This document shows, one piece after another, positions 2,818 through 14,745 of a DNA stretch of 64,000 nucleotides; position 1 is the stretch's first letter, and each line of letters begins with the position of its first letter. The notes under the pieces were generated by a model that saw only the letters and a program-made list of their open reading frames with translations, had not been told where the DNA came from and ran no database searches. The position numbers and the translations under genes were made by a program. Location: contig CAYTVB010000001.1 in the NCBI GenBank assembly GCA_964441735.1, forward strand, positions 1,164 through 65,163, read 5' to 3'. Origin of the DNA: an uncultured Thermotogaceae bacterium. Its GTDB lineage: Bacteria; Thermotogota; Thermotogae; Petrotogales; Kosmotogaceae.

Positions 2818-4530
2818 ATGAGCAAAAAGGGATACCTCTTTCTAAATATTGTCTTGGGCATAATTTCCATTTTGCTTGCAGTGGGATTGTTGTTAACAAC
2901 CCAGAATTTGTCTTTTCCAATTGCAATAGTACCTTTATTAGCCTTCTTTTTGCTGGCTGATTTTATTCCAATAAGAACAAAAGATTTTTCAGTAATAAGT
3001 AATTTTGCAGGTATTATTCCATTGATTATATTCTGGGATCCACACCTTGCACCCTTTGCAAGTTTGCTGTTATTTTTTAAGCCCGTTACAGGAGAAAAAC
3101 TTAAGGTCCAAAGAAAAATATACCGCGTTCTAAATTATTTTCTTATGTACGGTCTTGCGGTATATTTTGTTGACTGGACGGGGAATTTTTACATTTCCCT
3201 TATTCTTTTCGTACTAATCGCCAGAGTTGTAAGCATTGTAACTGCAGATATCCTTTATAGTCTTGTGCTTGGCAGAACAAAGCTCAGTAGAGTTGCTGTA
3301 ATAACAGATCTTATCGAATTTGCCTATTTCATCTTTTTAGCAGTATATGGCGGAATGATGTGGAATCTTTATGAACTGGGTAGAAATTTAGACACATCTT
3401 TGGTCTTTCTTCTTTTCCCCGCCACAACCCTTGGTTTATGGGGATTTGTTCAGTTTATCAATCTTTCAAATGAAAAAGAAGATACCTTGAAAAGGATAGG
3501 TTCTCTAAGGACTAAACTTTCAAAAACACTTGAAATGATTTCTCTGGTTAGATCCGATACGAATTTCCAGAGTGTTTTAAATCAAATATCATCAATTGTC
3601 CATAATTCAATAGGCTATAAATACGTTCTGATAAATCTACTGGATAGAGAAACAAACAAGGTTGAAAGGGTTGCTCAGGCTGGTCTTGAACCTGAAGAAT
3701 TTGAAAAGCTTAAAGATAGGTCTCCCGAAATAGATGATATAAAGCAGTTATTTGATGAAAACTTCAGAGTTAGCAGATCATTTTTCATACCTGAGGGCTC
3801 AAAAGAACTTGACACCACATATACTTATCAGGGAGACTACGACGAGCTCATTGCCGGTCAGGGTGAATGGCGTCCCAACGATGTGCTTATTATTCCAATT
3901 GTTAATCAATCAGATACCATAGGATATATCTCGGTAGATGCACCTTATGATGGCCGTAGACCACGTTATGAAGATATTGAGATATTAGAGATCGTTGCAG
4001 ACATTGTACTTCGTGTATTGGAAGAAGGACAAAAATATCGGAGATTGGTTATGGCAAGCAAGATTGATTCTGCTACCGGGTTATACAACCATACAGAATT
4101 CTTTATTATCCTTGAAAAACTGCTTGAGACTTCGGAAGACCAATTTTCACTTGTTATGATGGATCTGGACAACTTCAAATTATTGAACGATTCTTATGGG
4201 CATATTGTTGGGGATAAGATAATTGAGCAGGTCGCAAATGTCATCAAGAAAAACCTCCGAAAAATAGATATTGGAGCACGCTATGGAGGCGATGAATTCT
4301 GCATCATTGCTGTGGGTTCCAATAAAGGCGAAGCCATAAAGGTTGCTTCAAGGATAGCTGAAAAAATTAAATATGTTGAAGTAGATGGCATTAAGACCGA
4401 GATTTCATGTAGTATCGGAATATCCTCATATCCGGCAGACGGTAAGAATTCAACGGAACTTGTAGAGAAGGCTGACAAAGCTTTATATACTGCGAAACAA
4501 ACCGGTAAAGATAGAATTTACGCTATTTAG
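2818..4530 (+). CDS. Membrane-anchored GAF-GGDEF diguanylate cyclase
   Basis: Multi-TM N-terminus, a central GAF-like region and a C-terminal GGDEF domain (RYGGDEFCII, DLDNFKLLNDSYGH). ATG 2818 lies 9 nt after GGAGG, so it is preferred over TTG 2785. Confidence 0.85.
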   Translation: MSKKGYLFLNIVLGIISILLAVGLLLTTQNLSFPIAIVPLLAFFLLADFIPIRTKDFSVISNFAGIIPLIIFWDPHLAPFASLLLFFKPVTGEKLKVQRKIYRVLNYFLMYGLAVYFVDWTGNFYISLILFVLIARVVSIVTADILYSLVLGRTKLSRVAVITDLIEFAYFIFLAVYGGMMWNLYELGRNLDTSLVFLLFPATTLGLWGFVQFINLSNEKEDTLKRIGSLRTKLSKTLEMISLVRSDTNFQSVLNQISSIVHNSIGYKYVLINLLDRETNKVERVAQAGLEPEEFEKLKDRSPEIDDIKQLFDENFRVSRSFFIPEGSKELDTTYTYQGDYDELIAGQGEWRPNDVLIIPIVNQSDTIGYISVDAPYDGRRPRYEDIEILEIVADIVLRVLEEGQKYRRLVMASKIDSATGLYNHTEFFIILEKLLETSEDQFSLVMMDLDNFKLLNDSYGHIVGDKIIEQVANVIKKNLRKIDIGARYGGDEFCIIAVGSNKGEAIKVASRIAEKIKYVEVDGIKTEISCSIGISSYPADGKNSTELVEKADKALYTAKQTGKDRIYAI

Positions 4531-5947
4531 ACGTTACCAATACTTCCTCAAATGCTTCTACTACCTCTGGATCAAATTTCGTACCTTCATCTTTTTTGAT
4601 TTTATCCAGTGCATATTTCATGCTGAGACCTTCTCCACAGGGTTCGGGTAACACATAGCCCATGTAGCTGGAAACAAGAGAAACAATCTTCGATCTTAAA
4701 GATAGCTTTTCCCCTTTTAGACCATCAGGAAAACCTTTTCCATCAAAACGTTCATGATGATGTCTAACGATATCACACACCAGTTCAAAATCACCTATTC
4801 TTTTAAACATCTCTTCACCGGTGATGGGATGTTTACGATAGAATTCCTCATTGTCATATCTTTTTTTATACTCATAATCAGTTACAAAGACCGTTCCCAG
4901 ATCTACTGCAAGCAATCCAAGCTCTATAGCTTCTAACTCTTCTTTAGAAGTGATCCCCAGTTTTTGAGCGGTTAACAACGCCAGTTCGGTATAATATTCG
5001 ATATCCATCTCATAGTCAAAAAACCTTTTGTAAACACTTGTTGAAAACTCTTGCATCAACCTCCTAAGCTTTAGATAACTCTTTTCTTTGATAGTAGAAA
5101 GTTCTATATTTAATTTTTCGATATCTTTCTTCAAAGAACGAATGGTATCTTCATTTTTACTTTTCTGATAGCGCAAATCATCCAAAAATCTATTGAGCGA
5201 TTCTATATCCTCTATATTGCTTGAAAAACTCTCTCTATGGCTTTTAACCATTCCAATGCCTTTTATTATTTCTTCCAATACCATTGAAGTTCTATCTATA
5301 AAACTCTCAAAATACCATAATAAAATTGTTGCAGTTAGTGCACCAATAAAAACAATCCAGAAAAACAGAGGAGGGATAATATATCCTATACCCAGGGTTA
5401 AATCGTTAGTTAGTTTATATTTAAAGTAATATGTAAGTCTGTTTTTTGTAAAATCTAGAGCACGTGGTTCTACTGCAATTCTTCCTTTTATTGATGTGTT
5501 AAGAATATTTCCATTTGAATCTGCCAGATACCATATAATATCGTCAGTGACTGAAAAAATATGTGTAATCATTCTTAGAGGAACCTCAACCAAAACCTTT
5601 CCGTTTTCCGTATTAACGATTTTTTTGAAGCTGTTTTCATTGATAAATAATCCTTCACCAAATGCCAGCTCTTCTCCAGCAAAGACTTTTTCCATTAGAA
5701 TCCCTTTAACGGTATTATTTTCTACTGGATTGGTGATAACTCTGCTATTATGAAGGTTATCAAATGCATTGTTAAGCGTTATAACAAACTCTTCTTTGTA
5801 ACGCATTGTATGTGTTTGTGAAAAACTCATAAATGTAAAAACCATAGCAATTAGAAAGCCTACAATGCACAATGTAATGATTATTCGTATAACTATTTTT
5901 GTTTTGTTTAACCTGTTAAGACCTCTTTTTAAGCTTAGTCTTCCCAA
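4523..5947 (-). CDS. Membrane sensor protein with degenerate HD-GYP domain
   Basis: N-terminal TM, an extracytoplasmic region, a second TM and a coiled coil. The C-terminus has HHHERFDGKGFPDGL. TTG start 9 nt after GGAGGA. Overlaps the upstream gene by 13 nt. Confidence 0.8.
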   Translation of the reverse strand: MGRLSLKRGLNRLNKTKIVIRIIITLCIVGFLIAMVFTFMSFSQTHTMRYKEEFVITLNNAFDNLHNSRVITNPVENNTVKGILMEKVFAGEELAFGEGLFINENSFKKIVNTENGKVLVEVPLRMITHIFSVTDDIIWYLADSNGNILNTSIKGRIAVEPRALDFTKNRLTYYFKYKLTNDLTLGIGYIIPPLFFWIVFIGALTATILLWYFESFIDRTSMVLEEIIKGIGMVKSHRESFSSNIEDIESLNRFLDDLRYQKSKNEDTIRSLKKDIEKLNIELSTIKEKSYLKLRRLMQEFSTSVYKRFFDYEMDIEYYTELALLTAQKLGITSKEELEAIELGLLAVDLGTVFVTDYEYKKRYDNEEFYRKHPITGEEMFKRIGDFELVCDIVRHHHERFDGKGFPDGLKGEKLSLRSKIVSLVSSYMGYVLPEPCGEGLSMKYALDKIKKDEGTKFDPEVVEAFEEVLVTSK

Positions 5948-9533: not shown

Positions 9534-9722
9534 CTATCCGCCACGTGCATTTTCAACAATAATTACAGTGGCCTTCTTTGAAATATTATCATTTGCTTCC
9601 AATTTTTTCCCGTCAGCCAGTACAAAAACTTTCTCTCTGTCTATCATTAATTTGGTCAGTAGTTCATCAACAGACAATTCTTTTTCAAAACACCAGATTT
9701 TTTCATCATATAATACTTTCAT
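9534..9722 (-). CDS. ThiS/MoaD-like beta-grasp small protein ending in Gly-Gly
   Basis: 62 aa from ATG 9722 (AGGAGA upstream). The C-terminus ...VENARGG stop is typical of sulfur-carrier/ubiquitin-like proteins. Confidence 0.55.
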   Translation of the reverse strand: MKVLYDEKIWCFEKELSVDELLTKLMIDREKVFVLADGKKLEANDNISKKATVIIVENARGG

Positions 9723-9855
9723 TGCGTTTCTCCTGAACGACAAAGGGTAGTTGAGATAGTTCATAGTTTACTGAAGAACATTCTGTAATTTAACTACAGA
9801 CAATATCCTGTATATTCTATCACAGCAAACAGATTTAGTCTTCACAGAATGTTCA

Positions 9856-9892: not shown

Positions 9893-9968
9893 CGGGGAGT
9901 AGCGCAGATGGAAGCGTGTCTGCATGGGGCGTAGAAGGTCGCTGGTTCAAGTCCAGTCTCCCCGACCA
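9893..9968 (+). tRNA. tRNA-Pro (anticodon GGG), CCA encoded
   Basis: Hand-folded cloverleaf. Acceptor CGGGGAG/CTCCCCG, D stem GCGC/GCGT, anticodon stem TCTGC/GTAGA with loop ATGGGGC, T arm GCTGG-TTCAAGT-CCAGT, discriminator A plus CCA. Confidence 0.9.
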
Positions 9969-9972
9969 AAAA

Positions 9973-9998
9973 GCGGAGGAAATATCCTCCGCTTTTTT
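9973..9998 (+). terminator. Rho-independent terminator (copy 1, inside the direct repeat)
   Basis: GCGGAGGA-AATA-TCCTCCGC followed by TTTTTT. Confidence 0.75.
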
Positions 9999-10021
9999 CT
10001 TTTTTGTATTTACAGTCTTAT

Positions 10022-10160
10022 TTATTCAATTGTTATCAGGATATCGTCCATTATATATGGTTCGTCCTTTGTTCCACCGCCCAAATGATATGCTTTGGGT
10101 TCAGGGTACAGGTCGCGATACTTTGCTTCGATACCATCAAAGTCCCAGGTAGTTATATAG
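10022..10160 (-). pseudogene. Duplicated 3' fragment (stop plus last 45 codons) of the GH13 amylase gene
   Basis: Lies in repeat copy 1 and matches 12232-12370, which encodes ...YPEPKAYHLGGGTKDEPYIMDDILITIE stop. No upstream coding continuation past 10160. Confidence 0.85.
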
Positions 10161-10478
10161 TTTAATTTTTTAGTTTAAGTAAAATTTCCTATGTTCATTC
10201 TTCCTGAAGAACACTTTACAGAAACTATGTAAAGACTACATGCATTACTGATCTACGATTTTATACAATAAATTGAATATACATTTACGCTGCAATAATT
10301 ATCGAGAGGCTTTTAGTATATGGATACAATGTGAAGTGAAGTATTTATCGAAATCAAAAAAGCTGCTTTTTTGTTGGTTGGGTGTTTGCAGTAATCTATT
10401 AATTCTCATAGATAGGCATAAAATCATATTTACCAAAGCTAAAATAAATACTGAAATTTATTTACTATAAATTTCCAT

Positions 10479-10501
10479 ATACCATCAATTGATGGTATAA
10501 T
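10479..10501 (+). promoter_or_regulatory. Perfect 20-bp palindrome (putative antitoxin operator) overlapping a TATAAT -10 box
   Basis: ATACCATCAATTGATGGTAT at 10479-10498. TATAAT at 10496-10501. Lies 24 nt upstream of the toxin ORF. Confidence 0.55.
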
Positions 10502-10524
10502 GAAGTTGGGTTGTTTAGAAAGGA

Positions 10525-10872
10525 TTGAGGGTATTGTCTTTAGGGATAAAGCTTTTTTTGGAAAAAGTACGAAAATTAATTGAAGATGAGAAATATGAAT
10601 TTCTTAAAGGCAGATCAAAAAATAGAGAAACTTTAATAAAACTAGGTTTGACCGTTGAAAATGCGATAAATATTGTCTTTAACTTAGAAGAACGGGATTG
10701 TATTTCGGGTCCTAATGAAGAACTGAATAGCAATGAAAAAGAAGGAATCATTTATATTTTTATAAAACAACTAGAGGATCAAGAATTCCCGATAAAGCTA
10801 TATATTAAAATAAAAAAAGTAAAAGAGGAAGATATGATCGTTATTATTTCTTTTCACGAAACTTTGGGGTGA
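10525..10872 (+). CDS. MqsR-like toxin (putative mRNA interferase)
   Basis: 115-aa ORF. LEKVRKLIE..., KLGLTVENAINIV and C-terminal IVIISFHE parallel the E. coli MqsR layout (VKKLV..., ELGL..., LIVSFKE). Toxin-first order. Start is uncertain (TTG 10525, 10534 or 10558). Confidence 0.55.
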   Translation: MRVLSLGIKLFLEKVRKLIEDEKYEFLKGRSKNRETLIKLGLTVENAINIVFNLEERDCISGPNEELNSNEKEGIIYIFIKQLEDQEFPIKLYIKIKKVKEEDMIVIISFHETLG

Positions 10873-11906
10873 TGTGCATGATTAAGATAACTAAAAAAAG
10901 AGAAAAGTTATTTTGCGATAACTGTAATGAATATACTGATTATAAAGTAATAAAACGCCAAGAACGAATTGAAATTAAAGATGAAACTATTTCAACAGAA
11001 AGTAAAATAGCTATTTGCAAATCCTGTGGTAATGAACTTTTTGAACCTTACCTAGAAAATGAGAATTTAAAGCAAGTTTATCGTGAATATGCAAGAAGAA
11101 AGAATTTGGTTTTGCCTGATGAAATTAAAAAAATAAGAAAAAAATATGGCGTAAGTCAAAAGCTTTTTGCGATTATTCTTGGTGTAGGAAAAGCAACTAT
11201 AGAAAGATATGAAACAGGAGCTATACCTAGTTCTCTAATTAGTGAATTAATAAAAAAATCTAAGGAACCTCAGTTTTTCTTAGATCTCCTAGAAAAAAAC
11301 AAAGAAAATATTTCTAGAAGTGATTATAAAGAAATAAAGTCAAGAGTACAAAGGTTTATTAATGAAAAAAATCCAGTAAAAGAAATGACAAAGAAAATTA
11401 CAGAGATAATAATGGGACCAATTGAAGATATAGACAAGCTTGTAGGAATAATTACGGAGATTTTGCTTTCTCTTCGTAATAAAGGCTTTGAGTATTCTTA
11501 CCAGACAAAATTATATAAAATGATGTGGTTTGTAGAAGACGAATATAAAAATAGTTATGGTAAACCTTTATTGCCTATAAATTTCGCTCATGCTCCAAAT
11601 GGACCAATCCCAAATATCGGAATAGTTAACATAAATAAAGGTTACCGCTACTTACTGTCTTATTTGGAAGAACGTGGAGCTGTAGAAATCATAACAAATG
11701 AAGAAATTATTAACGGGAAACCTAAAGAAACAACTAAAATAGTGCTTAAAGATGAAAGTATGACTAAATACATTTCTGAAGATGAAAAAGAAATTGTTAA
11801 GAATGTTGTTGAAAAATATGGCCATTTAACTGGTAAAAAATTATCTGATATTTCTCATGAAGACGCAAGGTATAAAAACACAAAAGATGGAGATCCTATT
11901 GAGTAG
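10872..11906 (+). CDS. Antitoxin-like fusion: MqsA-type Zn ribbon + XRE HTH + DUF4065/Panacea-like C-terminal region
   Basis: CDNC...CKSC zinc ribbon. HTH KKYGVSQKLFAIILGVGKATIERYETG. Then KLYKMMWFVE, GKPLLPINFAHAPNGPIP and LSDISHED, as in DUF4065. The start overlaps the toxin stop (TGATG). ATG 10878 is an alternative. Confidence 0.65.
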   Translation: MCMIKITKKREKLFCDNCNEYTDYKVIKRQERIEIKDETISTESKIAICKSCGNELFEPYLENENLKQVYREYARRKNLVLPDEIKKIRKKYGVSQKLFAIILGVGKATIERYETGAIPSSLISELIKKSKEPQFFLDLLEKNKENISRSDYKEIKSRVQRFINEKNPVKEMTKKITEIIMGPIEDIDKLVGIITEILLSLRNKGFEYSYQTKLYKMMWFVEDEYKNSYGKPLLPINFAHAPNGPIPNIGIVNINKGYRYLLSYLEERGAVEIITNEEIINGKPKETTKIVLKDESMTKYISEDEKEIVKNVVEKYGHLTGKKLSDISHEDARYKNTKDGDPIE

Positions 11907-12177
11907 TAATTTCTTTTAATTGTAAAGTAGTTTGAAGATAGTTAATGAGCAACTGCAAAACATGAAATACTGGAAATTTCCATAAAAGCACTTTTAATGG
12001 CAGCCTTTTTTGTAAATAATAAACAAAATCCAAAAAGCTTTAATGATCAAAATTAAATAGAGTTAGCCCTATAATCATTAAGCCTTCCATCAAAACCGAA
12101 ACAATAAAGAAGAAATCAAGGAAGTAAGAGAAGAACAAAAGAATAATAGTGGAAAAATGTTTAAAATCATCGAGATT

Positions 12178-12370
12178 AAAAAGCGGAGGAAATATCCTCC
12201 GCTTTTTTCTTTTTTGTATTTACAGTCTTATTTATTCAATTGTTATCAGGATATCGTCCATTATATATGGTTCGTCCTTTGTTCCACCGCCCAAATGATA
12301 TGCTTTGGGTTCAGGGTACAGGTCGCGATACTTTGCTTCGATACCATCAAAGTCCCAGGTAGTTATATAG
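12178..12370. repeat. 193-bp direct repeat, copy 2
   Basis: Identical to 9968-10160. Contains the terminator and the genuine 3' end of the amylase gene. Confidence 0.95.
12183..12208. terminator. Bidirectional hairpin terminator (copy 2), serving the amylase gene
   Basis: GCGGAGGA-AATA-TCCTCCGC flanked by AAAAA on one side and TTTTTT on the other. Confidence 0.7.
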
Positions 12371-14745
12371 ATATTATATCCTTCAAGGCTTTCCGGTCTA
12401 TCAAGAAGTTCACCGGAGATAATCAATGTTACTTCGTTATTCATTTTGTTAGTTTTAACAAGCGGTGTTGGTGAGATTGGTGTTCCAAAATTATCAGGTC
12501 CACTTCCACTAGATGAATAGGCTACTATTGACCATCCGTTTGCGAATATAAAATAATCCCAGTCATAATCTCCAGGCATTGTTGCATTTAATTTTGGTAG
12601 AACGGTTGCTCCCTCTTTATCAGGATCATCTATAAAAACCTGGAATGTGACATGATCGAAACCATTTTGAGGACTCCATGAAGTGGTAAGATTTTTGGTT
12701 TTCATGGTAATGTTTACACTCGAACCTATTTTCTTCACTGTGACTCCCAGTAAATCCATCTGTTCATTGAATGTTATGTCTGTCGGATATTTGTAATCAC
12801 CGGTTGGTCCATGATCATCACCTTCAGGATCTTCTACCCGGGCAATTGTTTCTTCTGGAATATCCAGTACTACATTGTAGTCTTCAGAGTATTTAGAGTT
12901 TGTTCTCTTCTCTCCGTAAACCTTGAATAATATCGTATGGATTCCTGGATCAAATTTTGAGATATTCCACTCATATGACCATTTATTGTTTTTGACCGTA
13001 ACTTCAACTGCCTGATCAATACGTCTATCAAATATTATCCTCACTCTCTCTGCATTTTTTGTTGTCCCTGTTATTTCATAATTTGACGTTATTTTCATTC
13101 CGTCCTCAAGCTCGGGATAAATCTCTACTGAATGCTCATCAACCTCTCTTTTTTCTGATGTTGCCATACCAACATAAACACAGCGAGGATTCAAAACAAG
13201 ATCAATTTCTCCATCAGCATCAGTTGAATAGCTTTTTGCCAGTGTAGCTTCAGTAAACAAAGGTTTCACTACCGCGCCTGGATCTAAACCTGTTTCAAGA
13301 TTTGCAAGAATACGTCGTTCACTGGAGGTGTTGAAAAACACAAACGCAGTGTTTTCTCCATCATTTAGCTTGTAGGCAAAAACTCCTGGTCCATTGGGAT
13401 TTTCCTTCAATACTTTAACTGAGCCATATCGAAAAATCGGGTAATTCTTTCTCAATTCAGTTAATTCTTGAATATACTTGTACAATTCAAAGTCCCTGTT
13501 GTAGTTATCTTTATCTCCAGATGCATATCCTTCCTTGAACATGGCTGCTCTCGTTTCAGAAAAACCCTGTTCTGTTCCGTAGTAAACCGTAGGAATGCCC
13601 GGGATGGTAAATATAAATGACAGTGCCTGTTTTAGGTTTATCAAACCAGCACCCTGAAGAAATCGTTCCATATCGTGATTGTCCACAAAGGTAACCATTC
13701 GTTCGGGATTTTTATAGATCTTCTCTCTCTGTTCCAGTCTGTAAGCAAGATTTGACGTTGCTTTTCCTTCTTTGAAAACCTGTCTCAAAGCTATATTTAA
13801 TGGGAAATCAAGCATTGCATTCATTCCGTCATCAAAGTACTCTTTTATCTTCTTTTCTGCTGCGTTATCAAAAGCATCAGTGCTTACCCAGGCTTCTCCA
13901 AAGGTTATGAATGTATTTTCATCTTTTCCCGTTTCCCTGGCTGCTTCATATATGCCATCCTCACCCTTCAAGAATTCTTTCCAGAATTCGTGTGGGACGT
14001 AAATTACTGTATCTATTCTAAAACCATCTATGCCCACTTCTTTTATCCAGTGGGTATAGGAATCCTTTAAAGCTTCAATAACTTCAGGATTTTCCGTATT
14101 GAGATCATCAAGACCAGACATCTGGTAATTCAAGCGCTGTTCATCACTTTCAAAATTTGTAATATCTGGCGTCCAGTGATAGATATTTTCATCTTTATCC
14201 TCGTTGTAATTATTTAATGAAAAAGGATATTGAGTGGGAGCACTTGTTGGAGCGCTGTTTTCGTTTAGCTTGAATTCTCCATTAACAAATCGAAAGTAAT
14301 CACCAACATGATTGGTAACTATGTCCTGAATGACATATATGCCTCGTTTGTGAGCTTCGTTAACTAGTTTCTTATAAAGCTCCGTGTCACCAAAATGTTC
14401 ATCTATTTTTTTAAAATCACGTGCCCAGTATCCATGATATCCACCATAGTTTACCCATGGATTCCACCATTGATTGGCAATGGGAGGTGTTATCCATATT
14501 GCAGTAATTCCCAATTCGTCGAGATAATCAAGTTTGTTTATCAGTCCCTGCAGATCTCCACCATTGTAATGTGCGTTGTCAATTCCATATTCACCTTCAT
14601 TAAAATTATCATTTGTCTGGTCTCCATTTGCAAAACGGTCCAACATTAACATATATATAACCTGATCTTCCCATTGTGGTTCTGCAGCATACACTGAACC
14701 AACAATGACAGCAATCATAAACAATAAGATAATTTTCTTATACAC
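12232..14745 (-). CDS. Secreted GH13 alpha-amylase family enzyme with glucodextranase-like C-terminal module
   Basis: Signal peptide. GH13 blocks DRFANGD, GYHGYW, GFRIDTV, GEAW and FVDNHD. A long C-terminal beta-rich extension. GTG start after AAGGGGGT. Confidence 0.85.
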   Translation of the reverse strand: MYKKIILLFMIAVIVGSVYAAEPQWEDQVIYMLMLDRFANGDQTNDNFNEGEYGIDNAHYNGGDLQGLINKLDYLDELGITAIWITPPIANQWWNPWVNYGGYHGYWARDFKKIDEHFGDTELYKKLVNEAHKRGIYVIQDIVTNHVGDYFRFVNGEFKLNENSAPTSAPTQYPFSLNNYNEDKDENIYHWTPDITNFESDEQRLNYQMSGLDDLNTENPEVIEALKDSYTHWIKEVGIDGFRIDTVIYVPHEFWKEFLKGEDGIYEAARETGKDENTFITFGEAWVSTDAFDNAAEKKIKEYFDDGMNAMLDFPLNIALRQVFKEGKATSNLAYRLEQREKIYKNPERMVTFVDNHDMERFLQGAGLINLKQALSFIFTIPGIPTVYYGTEQGFSETRAAMFKEGYASGDKDNYNRDFELYKYIQELTELRKNYPIFRYGSVKVLKENPNGPGVFAYKLNDGENTAFVFFNTSSERRILANLETGLDPGAVVKPLFTEATLAKSYSTDADGEIDLVLNPRCVYVGMATSEKREVDEHSVEIYPELEDGMKITSNYEITGTTKNAERVRIIFDRRIDQAVEVTVKNNKWSYEWNISKFDPGIHTILFKVYGEKRTNSKYSEDYNVVLDIPEETIARVEDPEGDDHGPTGDYKYPTDITFNEQMDLLGVTVKKIGSSVNITMKTKNLTTSWSPQNGFDHVTFQVFIDDPDKEGATVLPKLNATMPGDYDWDYFIFANGWSIVAYSSSGSGPDNFGTPISPTPLVKTNKMNNEVTLIISGELLDRPESLEGYNIYITTWDFDGIEAKYRDLYPEPKAYHLGGGTKDEPYIMDDILITIE

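What the first reader, a model, noticed from the sequence alone, without database searches (positions are those of the whole stretch)
10525..11906. MqsR-like toxin paired with a tripartite antitoxin (Zn ribbon + HTH + Panacea/DUF4065-like)
- **Toxin:** the 115-aa upstream ORF follows the MqsR layout by eye. It has an N-terminal LEKVRKLIE helix, KLGLTVENAINIV, and a C-terminal hydrophobic strand ending ISFHE. E. coli MqsR has VKKLV, ELGL and LIVSFKE.
- **Antitoxin N-terminus:** the downstream ORF is translationally coupled (TGATG). It begins like MqsA, with a CxxC...CxxC ribbon and an XRE HTH.
- **Antitoxin C-terminus:** E. coli MqsA is 131 aa, whereas this protein runs to about 344 aa. The extra C-terminal region carries DUF4065/Panacea hallmarks (KLYKMMWF, GKPLLPINFAHAPNGPIP, LSDISHED).
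- **Why it matters:** in MqsA the Zn domain neutralises the toxin. The Panacea domain has been described as a portable neutralisation domain for many unrelated toxins. I do not recognise a characterised system with both modules in one polypeptide.
- **Possible meanings:** dual neutralisation, a second unseen partner, or a sensor role for one module, for example phage-triggered release.
Basis: partly seen in the sequence, partly recalled or inferred. Interest (0 to 1): 0.75.

Follow-up and report, generated by a model that had tools for sequence, protein, structure and literature searches.

The report
MqsR toxin with MqsA-Panacea antitoxin
This is a real two-gene toxin-antitoxin cassette whose antitoxin joins a zinc ribbon, a DNA-binding domain and a Panacea domain, but that design was already described and dissected experimentally in 2023, so this is an ordinary new member.

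Summary
Window 10534-10872 encodes a 112-aa MqsR-family toxin. Window 10872/10878-11906 encodes a 342-344-aa antitoxin with three domains: Zn ribbon, XRE HTH and Panacea (DUF4065). The toxin stop overlaps the antitoxin start (TGATG).

The domain assignments are supported by Pfam, NCBIfam, profile-profile comparison and predicted structures. The novelty claim is not supported:
- Kurata et al. 2022 list MqsR-like toxins as the commonest recognised partner of Panacea antitoxins.
- Ernits et al. 2023 validated Bacillus fungorum and Lactobacillus rossiae MqsR:PanA pairs with this same architecture.
- They showed that the Zn domain alone neutralises the toxin and Panacea alone does not, and they proposed that Panacea is a sensor.
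- At least 317 protein clusters and 78 species genomes carry the fusion.

New details found here:
- A 23-nt palindromic operator/promoter (10479-10501) is identical in all Thermotogota-type loci, and its core ATCA-WW-TGAT recurs across the family.
- The cassette is a 2017-bp, low-GC insertion next to tRNA-Pro, bracketed by a perfect 193-nt duplication. It is absent from three syntenic Kosmotogaceae genomes.
- The closest named relative sits in the Marinitoga phage MPV1.

Verdict: new member of a known kind, low interest.

The parts
9893..9968 (+). tRNA-Pro(GGG). This is chromosomal context; the duplicated segment starts at its last base.
   Evidence: ARAGORN; Rfam tRNA 55.2 bits. The same tRNA is present at the empty site in L084.
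9968..10160 (.). Direct repeat copy 1 (193 nt). It holds the tRNA terminator hairpin plus a duplicated fragment of the 3' end of the glycoside-hydrolase gene.
   Evidence: 100% identical to 12178-12370. Terminator-like hairpin at 9968-9997. The segment is single-copy in L084, L085 and L086.
10161..12177 (.). Foreign insert of 2017 bp with 27-29% G+C. It carries only the toxin-antitoxin operon and has no recombinase gene.
   Evidence: No counterpart in three syntenic relatives. G+C is 0.27-0.30 against 0.37-0.40 in the flanks. ORF lists.
10472..10501 (+). Promoter-like site: -35 TTTCCA, 18-nt spacer, extended -10 TGgTATAAT.
   Evidence: Consensus scan, 10 of 12 matches with TG. The same layout occurs with better -35 boxes (TTGACT, TTGAAA, TTGATT) in L004, L001 and L002.
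10478..10499 (.). Perfect palindrome TATACCATCAATTGATGGTATA. Inferred operator for the HTH dimer; it fills the promoter spacer and overlaps the -10 box.
   Evidence: Single occurrence in the window, 0.05 expected by chance. The 23-mer ATACCATCAATTGATGGTATAAT is shared with L001/MPV1, L002 and L004. The 16-nt core ACCATCAATTGATGGT also occurs in L005. The surrounding non-coding DNA is not alignable. The core ATCA[AT][AT]TGAT is in 25 of 66 toxin-upstream regions, against 0.005 expected per region.
10534..10872 (+). MqsR-family toxin, 112 aa (longest ORF starts at 10525). Inferred RelE-like endoribonuclease.
   Evidence: AF2 model pLDDT 93.9 with MqsR-like element order. All family-conserved residues are present: L51, G59, P60, F76, Y90, K92, S106, F107, H108.
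10878..11102 (+). Antitoxin N-terminal Zn-ribbon domain (MqsA ZBD; CxxC at aa 13/16 and 47/50 when counting from ATG 10878). Inferred toxin-neutralising domain. Alternative starts are 10869 and 10872.
   Evidence: TIGR03830. Invariant cysteines. Foldseek top PDB hit is E. coli MqsA 3gn5_A, E=7e-5. ZBD is sufficient for neutralisation in B. fungorum (PMC10440598).
11103..11363 (+). Antitoxin XRE-type HTH domain. Inferred dimerisation and operator binding.
   Evidence: Pfam HTH_3 and MqsA_antitoxin. Foldseek hits to HigA2 and the MqsA C-terminal domain at rmsd 1.2-2.0.
11421..11906 (+). Antitoxin C-terminal Panacea (DUF4065/SocA-like) domain plus stop codon. Role unproven; the literature hypothesises a sensor or accessory function.
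   Evidence: PF13274 at E=1.9e-16, aa 215-333 of the 345-aa ORF. The AF2 model is confident over this domain. BFVD hit to a 'SocA-like Panacea domain-containing protein', prob 1.00, TMt 0.65.
12178..12370 (.). Direct repeat copy 2 (193 nt). This is the copy in the original context, overlapping the true 3' end of the glycoside-hydrolase gene 12232..14745 (-).

Best explanation
**What it is.** A type II toxin-antitoxin operon of the known MqsR:PanA class, in a Thermotogota (Kosmotogaceae/Petrotogales-like) chromosome.

**How it most likely works.**
- The first gene encodes an MqsR-family, RelE-fold endoribonuclease toxin. This step is inferred from homology.
- The second gene is translationally coupled to the first and encodes a three-domain antitoxin.
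- The MqsA-type Zn-ribbon domain binds and neutralises the toxin. This is inferred from E. coli MqsRA and from the truncation experiments on the B. fungorum homologue.
- The XRE HTH domain dimerises and binds the perfect palindrome TATACCATCAATTGATGGTATA. That palindrome fills the promoter spacer and overlaps the -10 box, so binding would repress the operon. The position and conservation of the site are shown; binding itself is inferred.
- The Panacea domain is not needed for neutralisation in the studied relative. It is most likely an accessory or sensor module that controls release or turnover. This is a hypothesis from the literature and is untested.

**How it got here.** The operon arrived as a 2-kb low-GC insertion next to tRNA-Pro, with a 193-nt target duplication. 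Its nearest named relative is carried by the temperate Marinitoga phage MPV1, so it is a horizontally moving cassette.
For: **Domain identities.**

**Gene pairing is conserved.** 64 of 79 fused-antitoxin genes in 78 species genomes have an upstream, same-strand MqsR-like ORF. The same holds in the Marinitoga, Thermosipho and metagenome loci.

**All conserved residues are intact.** This applies to both proteins.

**Operator.** The 23-mer is identical in the window, L001/MPV1, L002 and L004, and its 16-nt core also occurs in L005, even though the proteins are only about 40% identical and the flanks are unalignable. The core motif is enriched roughly 80-fold upstream of toxins across phyla.

**Published experiments on the same architecture.** PMC10440598 and PMC8832971. 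E. coli MqsR:MqsA structure and mutagenesis: PMC2791442.

**Insertion.** Perfect 193-nt repeat, a G+C drop, and empty sites in L084, L085 and L086.

**Phage link.**
Against: - The toxin scores below Pfam's gathering threshold (21.9 against 26.2 bits).
- A Foldseek search of PDB with a confident toxin model did not return MqsR or any RelE-like toxin.
- Of the four E. coli MqsR residues needed for toxicity (K56, Q68, Y81, K96), only Y81 is conserved. K96 is replaced by a family-invariant His, and the K56 and Q68 positions are variable. The chemistry may therefore differ.
- No complex model, toxicity test, neutralisation test or DNA-binding test was possible here.
- The experimentally studied relatives are only about 24% identical to this antitoxin (using a B. 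fungorum paralogue).
- In Kurata et al. 2022, one MqsR paired with a PanA (Herbaspirillum frisingense) was toxic but was not rescued by its PanA in E. coli.
Confidence: 0.85

Rival explanations
1. The cassette is chiefly an anti-phage (abortive infection or superinfection exclusion) module. The Panacea domain senses a phage cue and frees the MqsR-like RNase. This is compatible with the best explanation but makes defence the selected function.
For: The closest named homologue lies inside temperate phage MPV1, between the replication and packaging modules. The Thermosipho homologue sits among RES, HepT/MNT and KAP-NTPase genes. Full-length relatives occur in human-gut phage contigs. Ernits et al. 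2023 favour a sensor role for Panacea.
Against: Neither protein gives a full-length match to a PADLOC defence model: the toxin has no hit, and the antitoxin's weak RmrA (E=2e-4) and HTH_VI matches cover only about 80 residues around its HTH (aa 72-162). No phage-challenge data for any MqsR:PanA pair were found in the papers read. In this window the cassette is a lone insertion among housekeeping genes, not in a defence island.
Confidence: 0.3
2. Dual neutralisation: in this clade both the Zn ribbon and the Panacea domain contact and inhibit the toxin, or Panacea neutralises a second, unlinked toxin.
For: Panacea alone neutralises toxins directly in single-domain PanA proteins (PMC10440598). 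The type to which this antitoxin belongs lacks the C-terminal ~47 profile positions of the longer type. Its model also has a beta-hairpin at 269-290. It could therefore behave differently from B. fungorum PanA.
Against: In the only dissected ZBD-HTH-Panacea protein, Panacea alone and HTH-Panacea fail to neutralise, while ZBD alone suffices. The 2-kb insert has no second toxin-like ORF, only two hydrophobic ORFs of 26-32 aa of doubtful reality.
Confidence: 0.1
3. The pair is a decaying, non-functional remnant of a phage or island, or the repeat-flanked insertion is an assembly artefact.
For: There is no recombinase. The source is a 121-kb contig of an unnamed Thermotogota genome whose close protein relatives are all from metagenome-assembled genomes. 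A 193-nt exact repeat could be mis-resolved by an assembler if a 2.2-kb circle coexisted with the chromosome.
Against: Both ORFs are full length and keep every family-conserved residue. The promoter and operator are intact and identical to those of relatives. The overlap between the two genes is preserved. The repeat copies are 100% identical, which suggests a recent event rather than decay. Either topology, integrated or circular, still implies a real cassette.
Confidence: 0.05

Closest known systems
Bacillus fungorum and Lactobacillus rossiae MqsR(D2):PanA (Ernits et al. 2023, PNAS; PMC10440598)
   Same: - Same gene order, toxin first.
- Same MqsR-like toxin.
- Same antitoxin architecture (ZBD-HTH-Panacea) and size (349 aa against 342-344 aa).
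- A B. fungorum paralogue locus (L063) aligns over ZBD-HTH and into Panacea. Its toxin matches the toxin-family profile at 98.5% probability.
- That paralogue also has an ATCAATTGAT palindrome upstream.
   Different: - Only about 24% identity to the B. fungorum paralogue; I could not retrieve the published pair itself (accessions differ).
- The toxin here is shorter: 112 aa against about 141-143 aa.
- The Panacea domain here lacks the C-terminal ~47 profile positions of the long type, and its model shows a beta-hairpin at 269-290.
- The host phylum is Thermotogota, not Bacillota.
- Nothing has been tested experimentally for this member.
E. coli MqsR:MqsA (YgiU:YgiT; PDB 3HI2, 3GN5; Brown et al. 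2009, PMC2791442)
   Same: - Toxin-first operon.
- RelE-like toxin with three helices and a beta-sheet.
- Antitoxin with a CxxC...CxxC Zn domain that neutralises and an XRE HTH that binds a promoter palindrome.
- Best structural hit of the antitoxin model is 3gn5_A.
- Y81 and the C-terminal S-F-x-E motif of the toxin are conserved.
   Different: - MqsA is 131 aa and has no Panacea domain.
- The toxicity residues K56 and Q68 are not conserved, and K96 is His here.
- The operator sequence differs: here TACCATCAATTGATGGTA, whereas from my own recollection the E. coli mqsRA palindromes are of the ACCT-N-AGGT type.
- The model here lacks the N-terminal strand beta1 of MqsR.
Marinitoga phage MPV1 genes MPV1_17 to MPV1_19 (same genes as Marpi_0317 and its upstream neighbour in M. 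piezophila KA3)
   Same: - Closest named relative: antitoxin 42-44% identical, toxin 38%.
- Identical 23-nt operator/promoter.
- Toxin and antitoxin genes overlap by 4 nt.
   Different: - It lies inside a 43.7-kb temperate siphovirus, between the replication genes and terminase.
- Here the cassette is alone, flanked by a 193-nt host duplication.
- Non-coding flanks are unrelated.
- It is annotated only as 'putative toxin' and 'putative antitoxin'.
Single-domain PanA / SocA (type VI) antitoxins
   Same: Share the Panacea/DUF4065 fold (PF13274).
   Different: - Single-domain PanA proteins neutralise through Panacea itself.
- SocA acts as a ClpXP adaptor for SocB.
- The SocA equivalog model scores 15.6 bits against a cut-off of 190, so this protein is not a SocA orthologue.

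Membership tests
MqsR toxin family (Pfam PF15723) | Significant match to the family profile. | tested here: inconclusive
   The protein itself scores 21.9-22.1 bits, E=2e-4, below the gathering score of 26.2. However, 76 of 100 of its relatives match (best 2.9e-10). The family profile against E. coli MqsR gives 95.5%, E=1.5e-8, and against PDB the top hit is 3hi2_B, E=0.003. Taken together this supports distant membership.
MqsR toxin family (Pfam PF15723) | RelE-like fold: three helices plus an antiparallel sheet in MqsR order (Brown 2009). | tested here: inconclusive
   The AF2 model has pLDDT 93.9. Its element order (H, E, H, H, E, E, E, E) matches alpha1-beta2-alpha2-alpha3-beta3-beta6 of MqsR without beta1. 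Foldseek against PDB gave no hit with E<0.001, and MqsR was not in the top 50.
MqsR toxin family (Pfam PF15723) | Toxicity residues K56, Q68, Y81 and K96 of E. coli MqsR. | tested here: not met
   Only Y81 is kept (Y90 here). K96 aligns with a family-invariant His108. The K56 and Q68 positions are Ser and Ile here and are variable in the family. The active site is a variant of the E. coli one.
MqsR toxin family (Pfam PF15723) | Growth inhibition and mRNA cleavage. | not testable with these tools
   This needs expression and cleavage assays. Relatives from B. fungorum and L. rossiae are toxic in E. coli (PMC10440598).
MqsA antitoxin family (TIGR03830 / PF15731) | CxxC...CxxC Zn ribbon followed by an XRE HTH, scoring above the curated cut-offs. 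| tested here: met
   TIGR03830 scores 99 bits against 61.8. PF15731 scores 37 against 30. HTH_3 scores 25.6 against 23. The four cysteines are invariant.
MqsA antitoxin family (TIGR03830 / PF15731) | MqsA fold. | tested here: met
   The Foldseek top hits are 3gn5_A and 3gn5_B, E=7e-5 and 1e-4, prob 1.00, 130 columns. BFVD YgiT-family hits reach E=1.2e-8.
MqsA antitoxin family (TIGR03830 / PF15731) | Palindromic operator in its own promoter. | tested here: met
   A perfect 22-nt palindrome lies between the -35 and -10 boxes. It is conserved in relatives and enriched family-wide. Binding itself is not testable here.
Panacea / PanA (Pfam PF13274, DUF4065) | Profile match above the gathering score. 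| tested here: met
   61.4 bits against 25.7, E=1.9e-16, profile positions 1-110 of 113.
Panacea / PanA (Pfam PF13274, DUF4065) | Compact mostly helical fold (alpha1-alpha7, beta1-beta2; Ernits 2023). | tested here: inconclusive
   The model for residues 182-342 is confident, with 7-8 helices, two short strands and an extra hairpin. It hits a viral 'SocA-like Panacea' model at prob 1.00, TMt 0.65, but E=0.015. No solved Panacea structure was among the PDB hits.
MqsR(D2):PanA with ZBD-HTH-Panacea antitoxin (Ernits 2023) | Three domains in this order, about 330-350 aa, encoded directly downstream of an MqsR-like gene. | tested here: met
   The same arrangement occurs in 64 of 79 homologous genes from species genomes.
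MqsR(D2):PanA with ZBD-HTH-Panacea antitoxin (Ernits 2023) | ZBD is sufficient and Panacea dispensable for neutralisation. | not testable with these tools
   This needs truncation and co-expression assays or at least a multimer model.
SocA (type VI antitoxin, ClpXP adaptor) | Match to the SocA equivalog model. | tested here: not met
   NF047745 scores 15.6 bits against a cut-off of 190, over aa 294-331 only.

The most novel reading that the evidence does not exclude
The cassette is a recombinase-less mobile unit shed by MPV1-like Thermotogota phages. It protects its carrier against other phages. The Panacea domain acts as the phage-sensing switch that releases a His-type MqsR RNase, and the 193-nt flanking duplication allows reversible pop-out as a 2.2-kb circle. 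The defence idea is already a published hypothesis for PanA. The Thermotogota setting, the variant active site and the insertion mode would be the new parts.
Probability: 0.15. Interest if true: 0.5.

Novelty: new member of a known kind. Interest (0 to 1): 0.18.

Why it matters
It matters little as a discovery, because the fused MqsA-Panacea antitoxin paired with MqsR is already catalogued and has been dissected experimentally.

This locus still has three modest uses:
- **A thermophile member for structural work.** It belongs to a short-toxin, short-Panacea subtype that could help settle the open question of what the Panacea domain does.
- **A concrete test site for autoregulation.** The operator is perfectly conserved, with a family-wide core ATCA-WW-TGAT, which gives a defined DNA site for testing autoregulation in this class.
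- **A natural example of recent cassette movement.** The clean contrast between occupied and empty sites, with a 193-nt duplication and no recombinase, shows how a bare toxin-antitoxin cassette moves between a phage and a chromosome.

Tried and rejected
- **Toxin against PDB sequences (phmmer).** Only spurious myomesin hits, E>0.1. This was superseded by the profile search.
- **Word-indexed homologue search with the toxin.** It found only the toxin itself. The exhaustive representative search was needed.
- **Foldseek of the toxin model against PDB.** No significant hit; cystatin and CorA noise at rmsd 10-20. I treat this as a failure of the fold test, not as evidence of a different fold, because the element order matches MqsR.
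- **L063 as the published pair.** I first took the Bacillus fungorum locus L063 for the published pair. The accessions (WP_099686571.1 and WP_099686570.1) show it is a paralogue, so I use it only as a same-species relative.
- **Exact-sequence look-ups of window proteins.** P0001, the glycoside hydrolase and the 443-aa neighbour are not on record.
- **Metagenome scan for an empty site.** The empty site was instead reached through a neighbour-protein cluster.
- **Plasmid DNA search with the insert.** No match.
- **tRNA-Pro recombination idea.** I considered that the MPV1 tRNA-Pro next to its TA pair explains insertion at the host tRNA-Pro. The two tRNAs have different anticodons (TGG and GGG) and are dissimilar, so I rejected this as a recombination substrate.
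- **Shared flanks or ends between cassettes in different genomes.** None beyond the coding sequence and the operator.
- **PADLOC.** No defence-system assignment.
Full report
**1. What is in the sequence**

On the + strand there are two tightly packed ORFs. The first runs 10525..10872. NCBI's product for it (P0023, 112 aa) starts at TTG 10534, and the alignment with homologues agrees. The second runs 10869..11906. ATG 10872 gives the 344-aa database product P0001. ATG 10878 gives MIKIT..., which is how most homologues begin.

**2. Toxin**

Pfam gives a single hit, MqsR_toxin. It spans almost the whole profile (positions 6-95 of 95) but scores 21.9 bits, below the curated 26.2. I therefore collected the family.

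- An exhaustive phmmer search of 1.84 billion representatives found 144 proteins of about 100-140 aa.
- Of 100 aligned members, 76 hit MqsR_toxin and no other family recurs.
- The family profile aligns to E. coli MqsR at 95.5% probability, E=1.5e-8.
- Its best match among all PDB sequences is MqsR 3hi2_B, E=0.003.

An AlphaFold2 model built on this alignment is confident (pLDDT 93.9). Its elements run helix, strand, helix, helix and then four strands. That is the MqsR order described by Brown et al. 2009 (PMC2791442), minus the N-terminal strand. A Foldseek search of PDB with this model returned nothing significant, so the fold test by structure search is inconclusive.

The active site is a variant of the E. 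coli one. Of the four E. coli residues needed for toxicity (K56, Q68, Y81, K96), only the tyrosine is kept (Y90 here). K96 is replaced by a histidine that is invariant across the 100 relatives. Other near-invariant residues are G59, P60, F76, K92, S106 and F107. The window protein has all of them, so it looks functional.

**3. Antitoxin**

- NCBIfam TIGR03830 (MqsA family, CxxCG_CxxCG_HTH) matches aa 16-139 at 99 bits, above its cut-off of 61.8.
- Pfam finds MqsA_antitoxin, HTH_3 and, at aa 215-333, SocA_Panacea (E=1.9e-16). All three are above their gathering scores.
- The four cysteines are invariant.
- A model built on 50 diverse homologues has pLDDT 91.9, with three well-defined domains and a weaker linker around residues 160-185.
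- Its best PDB hits are the two chains of E. coli MqsA, 3gn5 (E=7e-5, prob 1.00). The HTH alone superposes on HigA2 and the MqsA C-terminal domain at 1.2-2.0 A.
- Among viral models it hits YgiT-family proteins (E=1.2e-8) and a 'SocA-like Panacea domain-containing protein' (prob 1.00, TMt 0.65, E=0.015).
- It is not a SocA orthologue: 15.6 bits against a cut-off of 190.

**4. Is the architecture new? No.**

- Kurata et al. 2022 (PMC8832971) surveyed DUF4065/Panacea neighbourhoods. MqsR-like was the commonest recognised toxin domain (n=90), and 343 PanA proteins carried an N-terminal HTH.
- Ernits et al. 2023 (PMC10440598) validated B. fungorum MqsR(D2):PanA and L. rossiae MqsR(D2):PanA. Both antitoxins are listed as 'Panacea; ZBD (MqsA); HTH'.
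- The B. fungorum antitoxin is 349 aa, with ZBD-HTH at 1-174 and Panacea at 175-349.
- ZBD alone and ZBD-HTH neutralise the toxin. Panacea alone and HTH-Panacea do not. A catalytic Tyr mutant of the toxin is non-toxic.
- The authors conclude that Panacea is probably a sensor.

The fusion is also common. They are mostly Bacillota and are annotated as 'MqsA family' or 'SocA domain-containing'. A scan of species genomes gave 78 loci. In 64 of the 79 antitoxin genes in those loci, an MqsR-like ORF sits directly upstream on the same strand. Several of the remaining cases lie at contig ends or have fragmented toxin genes.

One caution: the B. fungorum locus I fetched (L063) is a paralogue of the published pair, not the pair itself. 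Its antitoxin is 24% identical to the one here. Its toxin matches the toxin-family profile at 98.5%.

**5. Regulation (new detail)**

A sigma-70-like promoter lies upstream of the toxin: -35 at 10472-10477, an 18-nt spacer, and an extended -10 TGgTATAAT ending at 10501. The spacer and the -10 box are occupied by a perfect palindrome, TATACCATCAATTGATGGTATA (10478-10499). It is unique in the window, with 0.05 occurrences expected by chance.

The 23-mer ATACCATCAATTGATGGTATAAT is identical upstream of the toxin in three other sources:
- Marinitoga piezophila / phage MPV1
- Thermosipho sp. 1223
- a metagenome locus

. In the Thermotogota MAG locus L005 the 16-nt core ACCATCAATTGATGGT is present at the same place. 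The proteins in these loci are only about 40% identical, and the rest of the non-coding DNA does not align.

Across the species-genome loci, the core ATCA[AT][AT]TGAT occurs in 25 of 66 toxin-upstream regions. The background is 0.005 per region of that size (palindromes listed). This fits HTH-dimer autorepression by promoter occlusion. Binding itself is inferred, not shown.

**6. Genomic setting (new detail)**

The operon lies in a 2017-bp stretch (10161-12177) of 27-29% G+C, within DNA of 37-40%. The stretch is bracketed by a perfect 193-nt direct repeat, 9968-10160 and 12178-12370. The repeat begins at the last base of tRNA-Pro(GGG). It contains the tRNA's terminator hairpin and the last 46 codons of the convergent glycoside-hydrolase gene 12232..14745.

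Neighbouring proteins place the window in Thermotogota, close to Kosmotogaceae/Petrotogales MAGs. Three syntenic relatives were fetched:
- L084, 81% nucleotide identity
- L085, about 78.5% nucleotide identity
- L086, about 78.5% nucleotide identity

In each relative, tRNA-Pro, the terminator and the hydrolase 3' end appear once with nothing in between. The single segment aligns to both repeat copies of the window, and the insert has no match.

The cassette is therefore an insertion with a 193-nt target duplication and no recombinase gene. My inference is a Campbell-type single crossover of a circular DNA that carried the 193-nt segment. This is untested.

The nearest named relative of the pair is inside the temperate Marinitoga phage MPV1, between the RusA/sigma-factor genes and the terminase. 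There the genes are annotated 'putative toxin' and 'putative antitoxin'. The Thermosipho copy sits among other TA and defence-like genes.

**7. Mechanism and confidence**

I put 0.85 on the following reading: a type II MqsR:PanA module in which the Zn ribbon neutralises the toxin, the HTH autoregulates the operon, and Panacea is accessory.

- *Shown here:* the domain identities, the conserved pairing, the intact conserved residues, the operator conservation and the insertion.
- *Inferred from relatives:* RNase activity, neutralisation by the ZBD and DNA binding.
- *Open:* what Panacea does.

A defence or sensor role is possible (0.3, and not exclusive of the main reading) but has no direct support. 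Neither protein gives a full-length match to a PADLOC defence model; the antitoxin's only hits are weak RmrA (E=2e-4) and HTH_VI matches over about 80 residues around its HTH. I found no phage-challenge data for this class. Dual neutralisation gets 0.1, and a dead remnant or assembly artefact gets 0.05.

**8. Verdict**

This is a new member, in a new phylum and of a short subtype, of a known and experimentally dissected kind. Interest is low. The operator motif and the occupied-versus-empty-site contrast are the only additions of note.

Noticed in passing
window 9968-10160 and 12178-12370; L084 12961-13154; L085; L086: A perfect 193-nt direct repeat brackets the 2017-bp TA insert, starting at the last base of tRNA-Pro(GGG). 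Three syntenic Kosmotogaceae/Thermotogota genomes carry the segment once and lack the insert. No recombinase is present, and how a 193-nt target duplication arose is unexplained.
   Followed up: yes
window 10478-10501; L001 5637-5659; L002 5630-5653; L004 5609-5632; L005 5620-5635; many of L005-L082: The window, L001/MPV1, L002 and L004 share an identical 23-nt operator/promoter element, and L005 carries its 16-nt core. The palindrome core ATCA[AT][AT]TGAT recurs upstream of MqsR-like toxins paired with ZBD-HTH-Panacea antitoxins in several phyla (25 of 66 regions). I did not find this motif described in the papers read.
   Followed up: partly
window 12040-12170, minus strand: Two tiny hydrophobic ORFs lie in the tail of the insert: 26 aa (MILNIFPLLFFCSSLTSLISSLLFRF) and 32 aa. 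They could be chance ORFs in AT-rich DNA or a small membrane peptide.
   Followed up: no
L083 (MPV1 OZ018341.1) 4069-5096 and L001 6001-7029: The phage record splits the antitoxin into two CDS (MPV1_18, 66 aa, and MPV1_19, 276 aa). The KA3 chromosome copy is one 342-aa ORF. This is either a frameshift or sequencing difference, or an annotation choice.
   Followed up: no
L083 5215-5286 / L001 7148-7222; window 9893-9968: In MPV1 a tRNA-Pro(TGG) directly follows the TA pair. In the window a tRNA-Pro(GGG) directly precedes it. The two tRNAs are dissimilar, so this is probably coincidence.
   Followed up: yes
L004 5422-5457 and 7549-7584: In a metagenome relative the cassette is bracketed, 2127 nt apart, by two 86%-identical terminator-like hairpins (AAGAGGCCGAAAGGCCTCTTTTTT). 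This is reminiscent of the repeat-flanked layout in the window.
   Followed up: no
L005 7387-8146: An irregular array of 66-177-nt repeats lies just downstream of the antitoxin gene in a Thermotogota MAG. Its nature is unknown.
   Followed up: no
L006 5644-6993 and 9918-11406: A Desulfitobacterium MAG carries two MqsR/ZBD-HTH-Panacea pairs 4.4 kb apart. One is the short-Panacea type (profile positions 1-287) and the other the long type (1-334). The two subtypes therefore coexist in one genome.
   Followed up: no
window 9534-9764, minus strand; L084 13402-13590: A small conserved ORF (62-76 aa) lies between the 443-aa gene and tRNA-Pro in all the syntenic genomes. Its function was not examined.
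   Followed up: no
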